Of a DNA stretch of 64,000 nucleotides, positions 22,801 to 28,800 are shown piece after piece. The stretch's first letter is position 1; every line of letters starts with the position of its first letter. Position numbers: made by a program. This stretch comes from Escherichia coli O157:H7 (GTDB lineage: Bacteria; Pseudomonadota; Gammaproteobacteria; Enterobacterales; Enterobacteriaceae), in the NCBI RefSeq assembly GCF_013167455.1, contig NZ_CP038328.1, one strand, 5' to 3'.

Positions 22801-25800
22801 GCACGCGTTGCGGTAGAAGCGGGTATTGCTGACTACTGGTACAAGTATGTTGGCCTGAATGGCGCTATCATCGGTATGACCACCTTCGGTGAGTCAGCTC
22901 CGGCAGAGTTGCTGTTCGAAGAGTTCGGCTTCACCGTCGACAACGTCGTTGCGAAAGCAAAAGAACTGCTGTAACTAGCATTTCGGGTAAAAAGGTCGCT
23001 TCGGCGACCTTTTTTATTACCTTGATATGTCCGTTTGCGGACAAGCAATAGATAAAGCGTGTTGTAGATCGCAAATATTTATATGCAATAAATATCAATT
23101 ATGTAATATGCATCACGATATGCGTGTTGACATTTGTTGTTATATCTATAACTCAATGTTATATAAGAAATTAATAATTCACTGTTTTCAAAACACCGGT
23201 TTCCCTGCTCAATTGCTTTCATTAAACCGCACGAGTATTTTATTTTTACCGCCGGACGGTACCCTAAAAATAAAATAAGGATAATTTATGCGGCTTAGTG
23301 ACTATTTTCCAGAATCATCAATCTCAGTTATACATTCAGCAAAAGATTGGCAGGAAGCTATCGATTTCTCGATGGTATCATTGCTGGATAAAAACTATAT
23401 CAGCGAGAATTACATTCAGGCAATTAAAGATTCCACCATTAACAATGGCCCTTATTATATTCTCGCACCAGGCGTGGCAATGCCTCATGCGCGACCGGAA
23501 TGTGGGGCGCTTAAAACCGGGATGTCTTTGACATTACTTGAACAAGGTGTTTATTTTCCGGGGAATGACGAACCAATTAAATTACTCATCGGACTCTCTG
23601 CTGCCGATGCCGATTCGCACATTGGCGCTATTCAGGCGTTAAGTGAATTACTGTGCGAAGAAGAAATACTCGAACAACTCTTAACAGCATCATCAGAAAA
23701 ACAATTAGCGGACATTATCAGCCGCGGATAATTACTCTCTCCTCTACAGGATAATATTATGGAAAACAAGTCTGCTCGTGCAAAGGTCCAGGCTTTTGGG
23801 GGCTTTTTGACTGCAATGGTCATCCCCAATATTGGTGCTTTTATTGCCTGGGGTTTTATTACTGCGTTATTTATTCCCACCGGTTGGCTGCCTAACGAAC
23901 ATTTCGCCAAAATTGTCGGCCCGATGATTACCTATTTATTGCCCGTGATGATTGGTTCTACCGGTGGTCATCTGGTCGGCGGTAAACGCGGCGCGGTCAT
24001 GGGCGGAATAGGTACTATTGGTGTGATCGTCGGCGCAGAGATCCCGATGTTCCTTGGCTCAATGATTATGGGGCCGCTCGGTGGTCTGGTCATAAAATAT
24101 GTTGATAAGGCACTGGAAAAACGCATACCTGCCGGTTTTGAGATGGTTATCAATAACTTCTCATTAGGTATCGCGGGGATGCTCCTTTGCCTGCTGGGTT
24201 TTGAAGTGATCGGCCCGGCGGTGTTAATTGCCAATACTTTCGTCAAAGAGTGTATTGAGGCGCTGGTACATGCGGGTTATCTGCCTCTGCTGTCAGTCAT
24301 CAATGAACCGGCGAAAGTGCTTTTCCTTAATAATGCGATCGATCAGGGCGTCTATTATCCGCTGGGAATGCAACAGGCTTCGGTTAACGGTAAATCCATC
24401 TTCTTTATGGTGGCCTCTAACCCAGGTCCGGGCCTGGGGCTGCTGCTGGCGTTTACCTTGTTTGGTAAAGGGATGAGTAAACGTTCTGCGCCCGGGGCGA
24501 TGATTATTCACTTCCTCGGTGGGATCCACGAACTGTATTTCCCATATGTGCTGATGAAGCCGCTGACTATTATTGCCATGATTGCGGGCGGTATGTCTGG
24601 CACCTGGATGTTTAACTTACTGGACGGTGGTCTGGTGGCTGGCCCAAGTCCGGGGTCTATCTTTGCTTACCTGGCGCTGACGCCGAAAGGTTCGTTCCTG
24701 GCGACAATTGCCGGTGTTACGGTAGGTACCCTGGTGTCCTTTGCTATCACTTCGCTGATACTGAAGATGGAAAAAACGGTGGAAACGGAGAGCGAAGATG
24801 AGTTTGCTCAGTCAGCCAATGCGGTTAAGGCGATGAAACAAGAGGGTGCATTCTCGTTAAGCAGGGTTAAGCGTATCGCCTTTGTTTGCGATGCGGGGAT
24901 GGGCTCCAGTGCGATGGGCGCGACCACCTTCCGTAAACGCCTGGAAAAAGCGGGGCTGGCAATTGAAGTAAAACATTACGCCATAGAAAACGTGCCTGCG
25001 GATGCGGATATCGTCGTTACTCATGCCAGTCTGGAAGGGCGCGTGAAACGTGTGACGGATAAACCACTGATATTGATTAATAACTATATTGGCGATCCAA
25101 AACTCGACACTTTATTTAATCAATTAACCGCCGAACATAAACACTGATTACAGAGGTAAAAATGAAAACCAAAGTTGCTGCTATTTATGGCAAGCGGGAT
25201 GTCCGTCTGCGCGAATTTGAACTGCCAGAAATTACCGATAATGAATTACTGGTGAGTGTGATTTCTGACAGCGTCTGTTTATCCACCTGGAAAGCGGCGT
25301 TACTCGGTAGTGAACATAAACGCGTACCCGACGATTTAGAAAATCATCCGGTCATTACCGGGCATGAATGTGCCGGGGTTATTGTCGAAGTGGGTAAAAA
25401 TCTCACTGGCAAATATAAAAAAGGCCAGCGTTTTGTATTGCAACCGGCGATGGGGTTACCAAGCGGATATTCAGCGGGCTACAGCTACGAATATTTTGGC
25501 GGCAATGCCACTTATATGATTATTCCCGAAATCGCCATTAATTTGGGCTGCGTATTACCGTATCACGGCTCTTATTTTGCTGCGGCGTCGCTGGCAGAGC
25601 CTATGTGCTGCATTATTGGCGCTTATCATGCCAATTATCACACCACGCAATATGTTTATGAGCATCGCATGGGCGTCAAACCTGGCGGCAATATTGCACT
25701 GCTGGCGTGTGCAGGTCCGATGGGCATTGGCGCTATCGATTACGCCATTAACGGCGGCATACAACCGTCGCGGGTGGTGGTGGTCGATATCGACGACAAA

Positions 25801-28800
25801 CGTCTGGCGCAGGTACAGAAGCTGCTGCCGGTGGAACTGGCGGCCAGTAAAGGCATTGAGCTGGTGTATGTGAATACCAAAGGGATGAGCGATCCTGTCC
25901 AGATGCTGCGGGCGCTGACAGGAGATGCCGGGTTCGATGACATTTTTGTTTATGCGGCGGTGTCTGCTGTCGTTGAGATGGCTGATGAATTACTGGCGGA
26001 AGATGGCTGTCTGAACTTCTTTGCCGGGCCGACGGATAAAAACTTCAAAGTGCCGTTTAATTTCTACAACGTTCATTACAACAGCACGCACGTCGTCGGT
26101 ACATCCGGCGGTTCAACGGACGACATGAAAGAGGCGATTGCCCTTAGCGCCACAGGGCAGTTACAGCCCTCGTTTATGGTGACCCATATCGGTGGCCTGG
26201 ATGCGGTGCCAGAAACCGTGCTCAATCTGCCGGATATCCCTGGCGGTAAAAAACTCATTTATAACGGCGTGACCATGCCGCTCACTGCCATTGCCGATTT
26301 TGCCGAAAAAGGCAAAACCGATCCGCTGTTTAAAGAGTTGGCGCGGCTGGTTGAGGAAACGCACGGCATCTGGAATGAACAGGCCGAGAAATATCTGCTG
26401 GCACAATTTGGCGTTGATATCGGGGAGGCCGCGCAATGATGTCCCTGGCGTGGCCATTATTTCGCGTTACGGAACAGGCAGCGTTGGCTGCCTGGCCGCA
26501 AACCGGATGTGGCGACAAAAATAAAATTGATGGCCTGGCGGTCACCGCGATGCGCCAGGCATTAAACGACGTCGCTTTTCGTGGACGAGTGGTTATCGGC
26601 GAAGGAGAAATTGACCATGCGCCGATGCTGTGGATTGGCGAAGAGGTGGGCAAAGGCGATGGGCCAGAAGTCGATATCGCGGTTGATCCCATTGAAGGCA
26701 CGCGGATGGTGGCGATGGGGCAGAGCAATGCGCTGGCGGTCATGGCTTTCGCCCCTCGAGATAGCCTGTTACATGCGCCCGATATGTATATGAAAAAGCT
26801 GGTTGTTAATCGACTGGCTGCCGGGGCGATTGATCTGTCTTTGCCTCTGGCGGACAACTTGCGTGACGTGGCGCGGGCGTTAGGTAAACCGCTGGACAAG
26901 CTGCGCATGGTTACGCTGGATAAACCGCGTCTGAGTGCCGCGATTGAAGAAGCAACACAGCTGGGCGTGAAGGTTTTTGCCCTGCCGGATGGCGATGTCG
27001 CCGCCAGCGTGCTGACCTGCTGGCAGGATAATCCTTACGATGTGATGTACACCATCGGCGGTGCGCCGGAAGGCGTGATTTCTGCCTGTGCCGTTAAAGC
27101 ATTAGGCGGGAATATGCAGGCCGAGCTGATTGACTTTTGTCAGGCCAAAGGGGATTACACGGAAAATCGGCAGATTGCAGAGCAGGAGCGCAAGCGTTGC
27201 AAGGCAATGGGTGTTGACGTTAACCGTGTGTACTCGCTCGATGTACTGGTAAGGGGGAACGATATCCTCTTTAGCGCTACGGGCGTCACGGGCGGCGAGT
27301 TGGTGAACGGTATCCAACAGACGGCGAATGGAGTGCGGACGCAGACATTACTGATCGGCGGCGCGGACCAAACGTGTAATATAATAGACTCCCTGTATTG
27401 ATGGTGATCTATCGGAAGACCAATGGCGACGCTGTCAGAAGATGATGTGCTTGAGCAACTGGATGCACAGGACAATTTATTTTCATTTATGAAAACTGCG
27501 CATTCTATTTTGCTCCAGGGGATACGCCAGTTTCTGCCGTCGCTGTTTGTCGATAACGATGAAGAGAGCGTCGAATATGCAGTGAAGCCGTTACTCGCCC
27601 AAAGCGGCCCGCTTGACGATATTGATGTTGCACTGCGTTTGATTTATGCGCTGGGGAAAATGGATAAATGGCTGTACGCCGATATCACGCATTTTTCCCA
27701 GTACTGGCATTACCTGAAAGAACAGGATGAAACGCTCGGATTTGCCGATGACATGACTTGGGATTTTATCAGCAACGTCAATAGCATAACCTGCAATGCG
27801 ACGCTCTATGACGCGTTGAAAGCGATGAAGTTCGCCGATTTCGCCGTCTGGTCAGAGGCGCGTTTTAGCGGAATGGTCAAAACGGCGCTGACGCTGGCAG
27901 TAACGACCACCTTAAAGGAATTAACGCCGTGAAAATTGAATTAACGGTGAATGGGCTGAACGTGCAAGCGCAGTACCATGATGAAGAGATAGAACGCGTG
28001 CATAAACCGTTGCTGCGTATGCTGGCGGCCTTACAGACGGTAAATCCGCAGCGCCGAACCGTGGTTTTTCTTTGCGCTCCGCCGGGGACGGGTAAATCTA
28101 CCCTAACCACCTTCTGGGCATATCTCGCGCAACAAGACCCGGAGCTGCCCGCTATTCAGACGCTCCCGATGGATGGTTTTCACCATTACAATAGCTGGCT
28201 GGATGCGCATCAATTGCGCCCCTTCAAAGGCGCACCAGAGACATTTGACGTTGCGAAACTGGCGGAAAATCTGCGCCAGGTCGTGGAAGGGGATTGTACG
28301 TGGCCGCAGTACGATCGACAAAAGCATGATCCTGTTGAAGATGCGTTGCACGTTACCGCACCAATAATCATCGTCGAAGGAAACTGGCTATTGCTGGATG
28401 ACGATAACTGGCGCCAGCTAGCGCAATTTTGTGATTTCTCGATCTTTATCAATGCGCCAGCTACTGCGTTGCGGGAACGACTGGTGGGGCGCAAGCTGGC
28501 GGGAGGGTTATCGCTGGCAGACGCAGAAGCTTTTTATGACCGTACCGACGGGCCGAATGTTCGCCGGGTGCTGGAAGAGAGTCTGCCTGCAAATTTGACC
28601 TTAATGATGACCGCTACGGGTGAATATCGTCTGGTGGATTAATGTTCCTGATTAGACCATCTTCCAGTCGCACCACACGAGAGAAATGACGCCGGGTAAA
28701 TGCGGCGTCATGACTGATTGCTACGACGCTCGTGCCTCGCTGGCGGCACTTCTCCAGCCAGCTTTCAAACACGCTCAACCAATTTTCGTCAAAATCCCGA

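What the first reader, a model, noticed from the sequence alone, without database searches (positions are those of the whole stretch)
23288..28642. Cryptic cmtBA-yggPFDC gene block with an unresolved substrate
Six co-directional, closely spaced genes: mannitol-family PTS EIIA and EIICB, a zinc-dependent dehydrogenase, a class II fructose-1,6-bisphosphatase paralogue, an MtlR-family protein and a P-loop kinase. Together they look like a complete uptake-and-catabolism route for a hexitol or related sugar. The block is preceded by a ~270-bp strongly AT-rich region (23020-23287), consistent with a silenced promoter. The physiological substrate is, to my knowledge, still undefined.
Basis: partly seen in the sequence, partly recalled or inferred. 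Interest (0 to 1): 0.4.

Follow-up and report, generated by a model that had tools for sequence, protein, structure and literature searches.

The report
Cryptic E. coli polyol PTS operon
This is the long-annotated but functionally unassigned cmtBA-yggPFDC gene block of E. coli, and comparison with about 90 related loci suggests it takes up a mannitol-like sugar alcohol and feeds it into glycolysis by an undescribed side route through fructose-1-phosphate.

Summary
Six intact, co-directional, tightly packed genes lie exactly at 23288-28642, behind a 268-bp stretch of 32% GC. The window is E. coli O157:H7-like, and the block is present in 5425 of 5426 complete E. coli genomes under purifying selection.

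No paper I could search assigns a substrate. However, the upstream region is not shown to be silenced. It is one of the strongest in-vivo CRP sites, and promoter fusions are active and CRP-dependent.

In 71 related loci from Enterobacterales, Vibrionaceae and Firmicutes, the invariant core is EIIA + EIICB + YggP + YggC. The phosphatase varies (YggF, a PHP phosphatase, PPi-PFK or none), and so does the regulator (YggD or a PRD-type MtlR). YggP belongs to the L-sorbose-1-phosphate reductase (SorE) family but has an NAD-type cofactor motif. In sister clusters a 1-phosphofructokinase replaces YggC, and some carry a class II FBP aldolase.

Best model (about 0.45): hexitol, to hexitol-1-P, to ketose-1-P (probably fructose-1-P), to the 1,6-bisphosphate, with YggF supplying hexose-6-P. 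The locus is long known; only the pathway hypothesis is new. Interest is modest.

The parts
22989..23015 (+). tktA intrinsic terminator (A-run, GGTCGC-TTCG-GCGACC hairpin, T6). It separates tktA from the cmt block.
   Evidence: Read directly from the sequence. Conserved in most Enterobacteriaceae upstream regions. The consensus scan did not list it.
23020..23287 (+). AT-rich regulatory region of the block (32.1% GC).
   Evidence: lowest 0.5% of 268-bp windows in the 64 kb.
23058..23073 (.). CRP site 1. The reverse strand reads TGCGATCTACAACACG. K-12 and ETEC have TGTGATCTACAACACG, so O157 carries one extra mismatch in the core.
   Evidence: The ETEC ChIP-seq peak is assigned to exactly this sequence, fold above threshold 16. 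It is near-perfect (TGTGAtttttaTCACA) in Salmonella arizonae.
23102..23117 (.). CRP-like site 2, TGTAATATGCATCACG (2 mismatches), 44 bp from site 1.
   Evidence: Conserved across 11 Enterobacteriaceae. Binding at this particular site is inferred, not shown.
23127..23165 (+). Candidate sigma-70 promoter elements: a conserved TTGACA (23127-23132), and TTGTTA-N17-TGtTATATA (23137-23165), which would put CRP site 2 near -62.
   Evidence: Read by eye. The consensus scan reported no promoter here. The transcription start site is not mapped, so this is inference only.
23236..23277 (+). Conserved AT-rich inverted repeat TATTTTATTTTTAccg-ccgga-cggTAcccTAAAAATAAAATA, directly before the Shine-Dalgarno AAGGA (23277-23281). 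Possible operator or translational element.
   Evidence: nearly invariant arms in Escherichia, Salmonella, Citrobacter, Raoultella and Klebsiella, with a variable small central hairpin. No double-sided compensatory changes. Absent in Yersinia, Hafnia and Rahnella, and absent upstream of mtlA.
23288..23731 (+). cmtB, PTS EIIA (147 aa), with the phosphorylatable His67 in the motif AMPHAR.
   Evidence: 28% identical to the EIIA domain of E. coli MtlA.
23759..25147 (+). cmtA, PTS EIICB of the mannitol family (462 aa), with EIIB Cys377 in the motif VCDAGMGSS.
   Evidence: 53% identical to MtlA residues 6-471.
25162..26439 (+). yggP, Zn-dependent dehydrogenase of the SorE (L-sorbose-1-P reductase) subfamily (425 aa). 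Zn ligands C39, H68 and E69; NAD-type VVVVDID motif at 205-211.
25682..25698 (+). Published intragenic sigma-54 binding site IS35 (CTGGCGGCAATATTGCA) inside yggP, about 740 bp upstream of yggF.
   Evidence: Motif taken and located in the window. Its function is unknown.
26436..27401 (+). yggF, class II (GlpX-type) fructose-1,6-bisphosphatase paralogue (321 aa). Its start overlaps the yggP stop by 4 bp.
   Evidence: The K-12 product name is 'fructose 1,6-bisphosphatase YggF', and it is listed as one of four FBPase isozymes.
27423..27932 (+). yggD (fumE), MtlR-like protein (169 aa). Probably the local regulator; annotated fumarase E.
   Evidence: PDB 3C8G; MtlR 6KCR E=2e-12. 28% identical to E. 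coli MtlR. Present in 56 of 56 proteobacterial loci and replaced by a PRD regulator in Firmicutes.
27929..28642 (+). yggC, P-loop kinase of the PRK/uridine-kinase/PanK superfamily (237 aa, GTG start, Walker A PPGTGKST at 51-58). Proposed ketose-1-phosphate 6-kinase.
   Evidence: Linked to YggP in 71 of 71 loci. Its 3' end is recombinant relative to K-12.

Best explanation
The block is one CRP-activated operon that encodes a PTS-dependent catabolic route for a mannitol-like hexitol. The route bypasses the classical mannitol-1-phosphate 5-dehydrogenase (MtlD).

Proposed steps:
1. CmtB (EIIA) and CmtA (EIICB) import the polyol and phosphorylate it to the alditol-1-phosphate.
2. YggP is an NAD-type relative of L-sorbose-1-phosphate reductase. 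It oxidises the carbon next to the phosphate, giving a ketose-1-phosphate. If the substrate is D-mannitol (or D-glucitol phosphorylated at C1), the product is D-fructose-1-phosphate.
3. YggC, a P-loop kinase, does the job of 1-phosphofructokinase and makes the 1,6-bisphosphate (FBP). FBP enters glycolysis through the housekeeping aldolase.
4. YggF (class II FBPase) is an accessory that returns part of the bisphosphate to hexose-6-phosphate for biosynthesis.
5. YggD is the MtlR-like local regulator.

Shown: gene content, operon-like packing, conservation, CRP binding and dependence, and FBPase annotation/activity of YggF. Inferred: the regiochemistry of YggP, the substrate of YggC, the regulatory role of YggD and the identity of the polyol.
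For: 1. Packing. The gaps are 27, 14, -4, 21 and -4 bp, and terminator-like sites inside the block are no more frequent than in shuffled sequence.
2. Selection. dN/dS is 0.02-0.23 for all six genes against other genera, and the block is in 5425 of 5426 E. coli genomes.
3. Linkage. In 71 loci with complete flanks, YggC accompanies YggP in 71, EIICB in 69 and EIIA in 68, across Enterobacterales, Vibrionaceae and Firmicutes.
4. Portability. The cassette lies between menF and menD in Hafnia.
5. Variable phosphatase slot. It holds YggF in 29 of 29 Enterobacterales six-gene loci and a YcdX-like PHP phosphatase in 21 of 21 Vibrionaceae. Rahnella and Budvicia have none. Some Firmicutes have an in-operon PPi-PFK.
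6. SorE family. A 44%-identical YggP relative sits in a canonical sorbose operon: mannose-type EIIABCD, the homologue, an RpiR regulator and sorbitol-6-P dehydrogenase. SorE acts on the carbon adjacent to the phosphate.
7. Cofactor motif. That sor-operon member has a G-R-T (NADP-type) motif at the end of Rossmann strand beta-2. YggP and every member linked to an Mtl-type PTS have D-I/L-D (NAD-type), which fits an oxidative role.
8. Kinase swap. In two independent sister clusters a PfkB kinase replaces YggC. The order is EIICB(Mtl)-EIIA-YggP-like-PfkB in L088 (there followed by HPr, EI and MtlR) and EIIA-PfkB-YggP paralogue in L085. The L085 kinase passes the 1-phosphofructokinase equivalog cut-off (330 bits against 292).
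9. Aldolase. In four Lachnospiraceae loci a class II FBP aldolase (398 bits against 343) follows YggP directly. In L084 the kinase, dehydrogenase and aldolase form a stand-alone triad.
10. YggC's nearest solved relative is deposited as 'fructokinase' (3C8U, E=1.4e-24).
11. In Firmicutes the operon has the layout of a mannitol operon (PRD-type MtlR, EIIA, EIICB), with YggC and YggP where mtlD normally sits. No mtlD lies in those loci except L080.
12. Stereochemistry (established sugar chemistry). L-sorbose-1-P/D-glucitol-6-P and D-fructose-1-P/D-mannitol-1-P differ only at C5, so SorE-like chemistry maps onto mannitol-1-P to fructose-1-P.
13. Regulation by CRP.
Against: - No enzyme assay of YggP or YggC exists in the literature I could search.
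- Mannitol did not stand out as an inducer of PcmtA-gfp among 198 compounds.
- Salmonella Weltevreden, which carries the block, showed no growth difference on mannitol (unpublished remark quoted).
- From memory, not checked here: K-12 mtlA mutants are mannitol-negative and mtlD mutants are mannitol-sensitive. If mannitol is the substrate, the system must be unexpressed under those conditions.
- One Bacillota MAG (L080) has YggP and a bona fide MtlD in the same cluster, with an Rpe-like epimerase, 6-phospho-3-hexuloisomerase and transketolase. That points to another substrate, at least there.
- More distant family members (42-56% identity) lie in non-PTS contexts.
- YggD showed no DNA binding in ChIP-exo and is reported as a fumarase in vitro.
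- The 'fructokinase' name of 3C8U is a depositor's label, not a tested activity.
- A kinase plus a bisphosphatase in one operon looks futile unless the two are balanced.
Confidence: 0.45

Rival explanations
1. Galactitol-like logic. YggP oxidises the carbon distal to the phosphate, as MtlD and GatD do, giving a ketose-6-phosphate (fructose-6-P, or tagatose-, psicose- or sorbose-6-P). YggC, like its relative phosphoribulokinase, phosphorylates C1. An aldolase cleaves the bisphosphate and YggF reverses the kinase step.
For: Dehydrogenase, kinase and aldolase is exactly the gat pathway layout. An in-cluster class II aldolase and PPi-PFK occur in Firmicutes. YggC belongs to the PRK/uridine-kinase family and matches phosphoribulokinase weakly.
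Against: YggP is not close to GatD: E. coli GatD is not among its PDB matches. Its nearest contextually defined relative is SorE, which acts next to the phosphate. The replacement kinase in L085 passes the cut-off for 1-phosphofructokinase, not for tagatose-6-P kinase. If the product were fructose-6-P, no dedicated kinase would be needed, yet YggC is linked in 71 of 71 loci.
Confidence: 0.2
2. Same enzymology, but for a polyol that E. coli is not known to use. Candidates are a rare hexitol (altritol, allitol, iditol) or a heptitol such as volemitol or perseitol, entering as sedoheptulose-1-P, then SBP, then S7P. Mannitol would be irrelevant.
For: No common polyol induced the promoter in the 198-compound screen. 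There was no mannitol phenotype in Salmonella. GlpX-family enzymes include bifunctional FBP/SBPases (PDB 3ROJ and 5A5L match YggF). tktA, epd and fbaA flank the block in Enterobacteriaceae, and transketolase lies in the L080 cluster.
Against: The flanking genes differ in Hafnia and in Vibrio, so the neighbourhood in E. coli may be accidental. The associated 1-PFK and aldolase pass fructose-specific equivalog cut-offs. CmtA passes the mannitol-family cut-offs and is 53% identical to MtlA.
Confidence: 0.15
3. One reading: the AT-rich 23020-23287 region is an H-NS-silenced promoter, and that is why the block is cryptic.
For: 32% GC over 268 bp, in the lowest 0.5% of the window. cmtB itself is also AT-rich at 42.6% GC. 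The operon gives no known growth phenotype.
Against: The promoter region is strongly CRP-bound in vivo. Fusions are active and CRP-dependent. Deleting cmtA changes the tobramycin MIC in wild-type K-12. I found no H-NS data for this locus: one paper holds both terms and lists cmtB only as a CRP target. AT-richness is normal for enterobacterial promoter regions.
Confidence: 0.15
4. There is no common pathway. The genes are a historical assemblage that now act separately (YggF as a spare gluconeogenic FBPase, YggD as fumarase E, CmtAB as an incidental aminoglycoside entry route), or they are decaying relics.
For: Separate activities are reported for YggF and YggD. The only known cmtA phenotype is aminoglycoside uptake. 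An intragenic sigma-54 site lies upstream of yggF.
Against: Gene order and linkage are conserved across phyla. Coding regions overlap. All six genes are under strong purifying selection. The block is retained in 5425 of 5426 genomes.
Confidence: 0.05

Closest known systems
E. coli mtlADR operon (mannitol PTS, mannitol-1-P 5-dehydrogenase, MtlR)
   Same: A mannitol-family EII: CmtA is 53% identical to MtlA EIICB, and the EIIB Cys and EIIA His are conserved. An MtlR-like gene (28% identical) sits towards the end of the operon (in the window yggC follows it). Both have strong multi-site CRP control; both are top CRP ChIP peaks.
   Different: EIIA is a separate protein and only 28% identical. There is no MtlD homologue. 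Instead the block has a SorE-type Zn dehydrogenase, a P-loop kinase and an FBPase. It is not known to be induced by mannitol.
sor operon (L-sorbose PTS, SorE L-sorbose-1-P reductase, SorD)
   Same: YggP belongs to the same small family of about 420-aa Zn dehydrogenases. A 44%-identical member lies in a canonical sor-type operon.
   Different: The sor system uses a mannose-family PTS, an NADP-type motif (GRT) and the reductive direction. YggP has an NAD-type motif (DID) and a mannitol-family PTS. An E. coli sorE deletion is not rescued although the block is near-universal in E. coli.
fruBKA (fructose PTS, then fructose-1-P, then 1-phosphofructokinase, then FBP)
   Same: The proposed second half of the route is the same chemistry. 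PfkB-type 1-PFK takes the place of YggC in sister clusters.
   Different: YggC is not homologous to FruK. It is a P-loop NTPase, not a member of the ribokinase/PfkB fold. The ketose-1-P would arise by oxidation of an alditol phosphate, not directly from the PTS.
gat operon (galactitol PTS, GatD Zn dehydrogenase, tagatose-6-P kinase, GatYZ aldolase)
   Same: The overall logic is PTS hexitol-P, Zn dehydrogenase, kinase, bisphosphate, class II aldolase.
   Different: It uses a different PTS family, and GatD is not a close relative of YggP. The kinase family differs, and the E. coli block encodes no aldolase.
FrcK-type P-loop 'fructose transport system kinase' (PDB 3C8U)
   Same: It is the closest solved relative of YggC (E=1.4e-24) and belongs to the same NCBIfam PRK09270 group.
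   Different: It falls in another subfamily. From memory, it is associated with ABC transporters rather than a PTS. Neither its activity nor YggC's has been tested, as far as I could find.

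Membership tests
PTS mannitol (Fru/Mtl superfamily) EIICB + EIIA | Profile match above the curated family cut-off. | tested here: met
   CmtA scores 592.9 on NF011663 against a cut-off of 589, and 480 on TIGR00851 against 468.4, so it only just passes. CmtB scores 326 on NF007358 against 192.
PTS mannitol (Fru/Mtl superfamily) EIICB + EIIA | Phosphorylation-site Cys in EIIB and His in EIIA. | tested here: met
   CmtA Cys377 in VCDAGMGSS aligns with the ACDAGMGSS motif of MtlA. CmtB His67 in AMPHAR aligns with the AVPHG motif of MtlA.
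PTS mannitol (Fru/Mtl superfamily) EIICB + EIIA | Transport and phosphorylation of D-mannitol. | not testable with these tools
   There is only indirect, negative evidence: mannitol was not a notable inducer and there was no mannitol growth difference in Salmonella.
[quoted passage not shown] | MDR fold with catalytic Zn ligands, and the family-specific length of about 420 aa with a C-terminal extension. | tested here: met
   PF08240 and PF00107 are present. C39, H68 and E69 are invariant. It aligns full-length at 44% identity with the member inside a sor-type operon.
[quoted passage not shown] | Genomic association with a mannose-type sorbose PTS and sorbitol-6-P dehydrogenase. | tested here: not met
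   YggP is linked to a mannitol-type PTS and a P-loop kinase instead. It is therefore a SorE paralogue, not SorE itself.
[quoted passage not shown] | NADP-type motif at the end of Rossmann strand beta-2, as in the sor-operon member. | tested here: not met
   YggP has VVVVDID, whereas the sor-operon member has VVTGRT.
Class II (GlpX) fructose-1,6-bisphosphatase | Equivalog profile match and close similarity to solved GlpX. | tested here: met
   YggF scores 577 on TIGR00330 against 259. E. coli GlpX 1NI9 matches at E=7e-109. FBPase activity is stated in the annotation and literature; I did not read the primary paper.
MtlR family of mannitol-operon repressors | Sequence and structure membership. 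| tested here: met
   PF05068 in orthologues. MtlR structures match at E=2e-12 (6KCR) and 5.5e-8 (3BRJ). 28% identity to E. coli MtlR. It is below the MltR subfamily cut-off (86 bits against 149), so it forms its own branch.
MtlR family of mannitol-operon repressors | Acts as a transcriptional regulator of the adjacent operon. | tested here: inconclusive
   For: it is present in 56 of 56 proteobacterial loci and is replaced by a PRD-type regulator in Firmicutes (10 of 15). Against: no ChIP-exo peaks, and it is reported as fumarase E.
PRK / uridine kinase / pantothenate kinase P-loop kinases | Walker A motif and profile match. | tested here: met
   PPGTGKST at residues 51-58. NF006742 scores 519 against 402. 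PF00485 is found in orthologues.
Pantothenate kinase or uridine kinase proper | Score above the equivalog cut-off. | tested here: not met
   PanK scores 50.9 against 235, and Udk 33.7 against 180.
1-phosphofructokinase (FruK, PfkB fold) | Homology to the PfkB/ribokinase family. | tested here: not met
   YggC has no PfkB match. The claim is functional analogy only, based on the swap between PfkB and YggC next to YggP-like genes.
CRP-activated catabolic promoter | A CRP site, in-vivo binding, and loss of activity without CRP. | tested here: met
   Sites lie at 23058-23073 and 23102-23117. Binding and dependence come from published data in K-12 and ETEC. The O157 allele of site 1 has one extra mismatch and has not been tested.
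H-NS-silenced (xenogeneic) promoter | H-NS occupancy and derepression in an hns mutant. | not testable with these tools
   Only the AT-richness is shown. I found no H-NS data for this locus.

The most novel reading that the evidence does not exclude
The block encodes a route for a polyol that E. coli is not known to use. Candidates include a heptitol (volemitol or perseitol) entering as sedoheptulose-1-P, then SBP, then S7P. In that reading YggC would be the founding example of a P-loop (PRK/uridine-kinase-fold) ketose-1-phosphate kinase, YggF would be the matching bisphosphatase, and the flanking tktA, epd and fbaA genes would be part of the logic.
Probability: 0.08. Interest if true: 0.65.

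Novelty: new variant of a known kind. Interest (0 to 1): 0.35.

Why it matters
The locus has been known and annotated since the 1990s, so nothing new exists at the sequence level. What remains open is one of the few PTS systems of E. coli without a substrate, together with three y-genes (yggP, yggC, yggD/fumE).

The comparative analysis turns this into a concrete, cheap test. Assay YggP on mannitol-1-P and fructose-1-P with NAD(H), and YggC on fructose-1-P with ATP.

If confirmed, three things follow:
- It would define an MtlD-independent hexitol route that is the only one encoded within the mannitol-type operons of many gut Lachnospiraceae.
- It would give the first function for the YggC/FrcK kinase family.
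- It would call into question the 'fumarase E' annotation that is now propagated to all E. coli genomes.

It also bears on aminoglycoside uptake through CmtA.

Tried and rejected
- **Rfam.** A scan of 20000-33000 at E<=1 gave only a sub-threshold istR hit over the tktA terminator. There is no known RNA element.
- **Leader RNA fold.** Folding 23165-23300 gave z=-0.68, which is not special.
- **Covariation in the conserved inverted repeat.** The arms are invariant and no pair changes on both sides. It is conserved sequence, not demonstrated structure.
- **Shared MtlR/YggD operator.** I looked for the same repeat upstream of E. coli mtlA and did not find it.
- **Promoter and terminator scan.** No promoter was called in the intergenic region. 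Internal terminator-like hits were below the shuffle expectation.
- **Literature.** Nine searches were run. Several were swamped by unrelated meanings of 'fume' and 'CMTB'. No substrate assignment turned up. The cap on papers stopped me reading the constitutive-promoter paper that mentions yggD and yggC.
- **Uridine link.** The best inducer is uridine and YggC is in the uridine-kinase family. I rejected this as a specific link: uridine also induces 13 other transporters, apparently through CRP, and YggC fails the Udk cut-off.
- **Pentitol idea.** D-arabitol-1-P would lead to ribulose-1,5-bisphosphate, which has no onward route, so I rejected it on chemistry.
- **More distant YggP relatives** (P0121, P0125, P0127, P0131, P0148) lie in uninformative or non-PTS contexts.
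- **Neighbours of the Anaerostipes triad** are a GNAT acetyltransferase, DUF4190 and a transposase-like protein, not a transporter.

Full report
**Observation**

- cmtB 23288-23731
- cmtA 23759-25147
- yggP 25162-26439
- yggF 26436-27401
- yggD 27423-27932
- yggC 27929-28642 (GTG start)

The gaps between them are 27, 14, -4, 21 and -4 bp. Curated NCBIfam models confirm the identities:
- PTS mannitol-type EIIA, 326 bits against a cut-off of 192
- EIICB, 593 against 589, and 480 on TIGR00851 against 468, so just above both cut-offs
- GlpX-type class II FBPase, 577 against 259
- the YggD equivalog, 331 against 167, with a weaker match to the MtlR family
- the YggC nucleoside/nucleotide-kinase equivalog, 519 against 402

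YggP matches only generic Zn-dehydrogenase models.

The window is 100% identical to many E. coli O157:H7 chromosomes. The block occurs in 5425 of 5426 complete E. coli genomes, and 5387 of them cover at least 80% of the query. RefSeq annotates the same six genes in O157 and in K-12.

The region 23020-23287 is 268 bp at 32.1% GC, against 51.8% for the window. That is the lowest 0.5% of windows of that size.

**The upstream region**

The tktA stop codon (22972-22974) is followed by a textbook terminator hairpin, GGTCGC-TTCG-GCGACC plus T6 (22994-23015). It is conserved in other Enterobacteriaceae. The block therefore has its own regulatory region.

An alignment of 11 Enterobacteriaceae shows two conserved CRP-type palindromes.
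- Site 1 (23058-23073) is near-perfect in Salmonella arizonae. It reads TGTGATCTACAACACG in K-12, but carries one extra core mismatch (TGCGA) in the O157 window.
- Site 2 (23102-23117) reads TGTAATATGCATCACG.

Published data bear directly on the 'silenced promoter' idea.
- cmtB is a Genomic-SELEX CRP target, and its lacZ fusion loses activity in a crp mutant.
- In ETEC H10407, the CRP ChIP-seq peak assigned to exactly the site-1 sequence has a fold-above-threshold of 16. Only four peaks in the table are higher, including mtlA at 27.
- A PcmtA-gfp fusion is active and CRP-dependent. It is lowest on glucose and about 6-fold higher with uridine.
- Deleting cmtA raised the tobramycin MIC in two K-12 backgrounds.

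The region is thus a CRP-activated promoter region that happens to be AT-rich. H-NS binding is neither shown nor excluded.

The consensus scan calls no promoter there. By eye there is a conserved TTGACA (23127-23132) and a TTGTTA-N17-TGtTATATA arrangement (23137-23165). The latter would put CRP site 2 near -62. This is inference only.

Just before the Shine-Dalgarno sequence lies a strikingly conserved AT-rich inverted repeat (23236-23277). Its arms never vary, so covariation cannot be assessed. The leader as a whole does not fold better than shuffles (z=-0.68). Rfam finds nothing. The repeat is absent upstream of mtlA.

**Is it a living unit?**

dN/dS for all six genes against E. albertii, Salmonella arizonae, Citrobacter, Klebsiella, Buttiauxella and Hafnia is 0.02-0.23. 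The block is therefore not a decaying relic.

It is accessory in Salmonella enterica, where it is reported as specific to Weltevreden and Paratyphi B sensu stricto. In Hafnia the identical six-gene cassette sits between menF and menD. It behaves as a portable cassette.

**Comparative genomics**

YggP belongs to a small family: 225 clusters at 50% identity reach E<1e-30 among 1.84 billion representatives. A scan of one genome per species found close relatives in at least 117 of 100,044 species, and 80 loci were fetched.

I mapped the six proteins and some extra ones onto these loci. Among the 71 loci with complete flanks:
- YggC accompanies YggP in 71, EIICB in 69 and EIIA in 68.
- YggD is present in 56 of 56 proteobacterial loci and 0 of 15 Firmicutes loci. 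In Firmicutes a PRD-type (Gram-positive MtlR-like) regulator is present in 10 of 15.
- The phosphatase slot is variable. It holds YggF in 29 of 29 Enterobacterales six-gene loci and a YcdX-like PHP phosphatase in 21 of 21 Vibrionaceae. It is empty in Rahnella and Budvicia, where the block lies 2 kb upstream of mtlADR.
- A PPi-type phosphofructokinase lies within the operon in 4 Firmicutes.
- In four Lachnospiraceae loci a class II FBP aldolase (398 bits against 343) follows YggP directly. In Anaerostipes the kinase, dehydrogenase and aldolase form a stand-alone triad.

**What YggP and YggC probably do**

A 44%-identical family member lies in a canonical sorbose operon: mannose-type EIIA/B/C/D, the homologue, an RpiR regulator, and sorbitol-6-P dehydrogenase at 428 bits against 304. 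That member is SorE, which reduces L-sorbose-1-P at the carbon next to the phosphate (its function is stated).

At the end of Rossmann strand beta-2, the sor-operon member has G-R-T, an NADP-type motif. YggP and every member linked to a mannitol-type PTS have D-I/L-D, an NAD-type motif. The NAD-type motif fits an oxidative role.

In two independent sister clusters the partner kinase is not YggC but a PfkB enzyme.
- L088 has EIICB(Mtl)-EIIA-YggP-like-PfkB-HPr-EI-MtlR.
- L085 has EIIA-PfkB-YggP paralogue. This PfkB passes the 1-phosphofructokinase equivalog cut-off (330 bits against 292) and fails the tagatose-6-P kinase cut-offs.

YggC's closest solved relative is deposited as 'fructokinase' (3C8U, E=1.4e-24). 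PanK and Udk are distant, and their cut-offs are not met.

Sugar stereochemistry adds a point. L-sorbose-1-P/D-glucitol-6-P and D-fructose-1-P/D-mannitol-1-P differ only at C5. A SorE-like enzyme acting on the mannitol series would therefore interconvert mannitol-1-P and fructose-1-P.

**Model**

1. CmtBA imports a mannitol-like hexitol as the 1-phosphate.
2. YggP (NAD+) oxidises C2 to give the ketose-1-phosphate, most simply fructose-1-P.
3. YggC acts as a non-homologous 1-phosphofructokinase and makes FBP.
4. The housekeeping aldolase, or an in-cluster aldolase in some Firmicutes, takes over.
5. YggF, the PHP phosphatase or the reversible PPi-PFK supplies hexose-6-P, which such a route bypasses. 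From memory, fructose catabolism via fructose-1-P makes the same demand on FBPase.
6. YggD fills the regulator slot.

ATP cost equals that of the MtlD plus PFK route.

Shown: gene content, packing, linkage, selection, CRP control and the FBPase assignment of YggF. Inferred: the regiochemistry of YggP, the substrate of YggC, the role of YggD and the identity of the polyol.

**Caveats**

- Mannitol was not a notable inducer among 198 compounds. Nucleosides were, probably through cAMP-CRP, because 13 other transporters respond as well.
- Salmonella carrying the block showed no mannitol growth difference.
- An E. coli sorE deletion is not rescued by the resident yggP.
- One Bacillota MAG has YggP together with a genuine MtlD (414 bits against 356), an Rpe-like epimerase, 6-phospho-3-hexuloisomerase and a split transketolase. 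YggP is therefore not simply an MtlD substitute everywhere.
- More distant family members occur without a PTS.
- YggD gave no ChIP-exo peaks and is reported to be a minor fumarase. I regard the fumarase label as doubtful on contextual grounds but cannot test it.

**Comparison with known systems, and verdict**

The block resembles mtlADR in transporter, regulator family and CRP control. CmtA is 53% identical to MtlA and YggD 28% identical to MtlR. It resembles sor in its dehydrogenase family, fruBKA in its proposed chemistry, and gat in its overall logic.

It is a member of none of them. It lacks MtlD, uses another PTS family than sor and gat, and its kinase is unrelated to FruK.

The locus itself is long known and annotated.

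What this work adds is a specific, testable pathway hypothesis and a correction of the 'silenced promoter' idea. Interest is modest (0.35). Confidence in the general mechanism is about 0.45, and in mannitol as the substrate about 0.3.

Noticed in passing
window 28574-31840: A 3.3-kb segment is absent from K-12. It carries a convergent ECF-type transporter (two ABC ATPases, a T component and an S component) plus a PPC-domain DNA-binding protein, and lies between yggC and epd. The first ATPase gene overlaps the yggC 3' end by 29 nt. Its substrate is unknown.
   Followed up: partly
window 28300-28642 (yggC 3' end): Homology with K-12 breaks at 28573, inside yggC, and identity already falls to 77% from 28300. 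O157 and K-12 YggC are only 83% identical, with dS 0.53 against 0.01-0.09 for the other five genes. This points to allele replacement by recombination next to the ECF island.
   Followed up: partly
window 25682-25698: The published intragenic sigma-54 binding site IS35 (CTGGCGGCAATATTGCA) lies inside yggP in the sense orientation, about 740 bp upstream of yggF. No function is known.
   Followed up: partly
window 23071 (within CRP site 1, 23058-23073): The O157 window has G where K-12, ETEC and Escherichia sp. E1V33 have A. This turns the ChIP-verified CRP half-site TGTGA into TGCGA. It may lower CRP activation in this lineage.
   Followed up: partly
window 23236-23277: An AT-rich inverted repeat is conserved in Enterobacteriaceae directly before the cmtB ribosome-binding site. 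It has invariant arms and a variable small central hairpin. It is absent in Yersinia, Hafnia and Rahnella, and absent upstream of mtlA. It is a candidate operator.
   Followed up: partly
window 13373-13823, 17690-17978, 54914-55404: Three other stretches in the window are as AT-rich as the cmt upstream region or more so, with minima of 28.7%, 35.1% and 28.4% GC. I did not examine them.
   Followed up: no
L080:1-6610: A Bacillota MAG has the cluster EIICB(Mtl)-YggP-Rpe-like epimerase-6-phospho-3-hexuloisomerase-MtlD-split transketolase. This is an unusual combination, suggesting a different polyol route that uses the same dehydrogenase family.
   Followed up: partly
L031:12942-16819 (also L033-L036): In Rahnella the five-gene cmt-like block (without a phosphatase) lies about 2 kb upstream of the canonical mtlA-mtlD-mtlR operon.
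   Followed up: partly
L079: This genome record is titled Chryseobacterium sp. but carries an Enterobacteriaceae-type six-gene block (YggP 88% identical to E. coli). It is probably contamination or mislabelling of the assembly.
   Followed up: no
window 20953-22974: The mechanical ORF for tktA starts at a GTG at 20953. The RefSeq start corresponds to the ATG at 20983 ([12 protein letters not shown]...). This is a trivial start-codon difference.
   Followed up: yes
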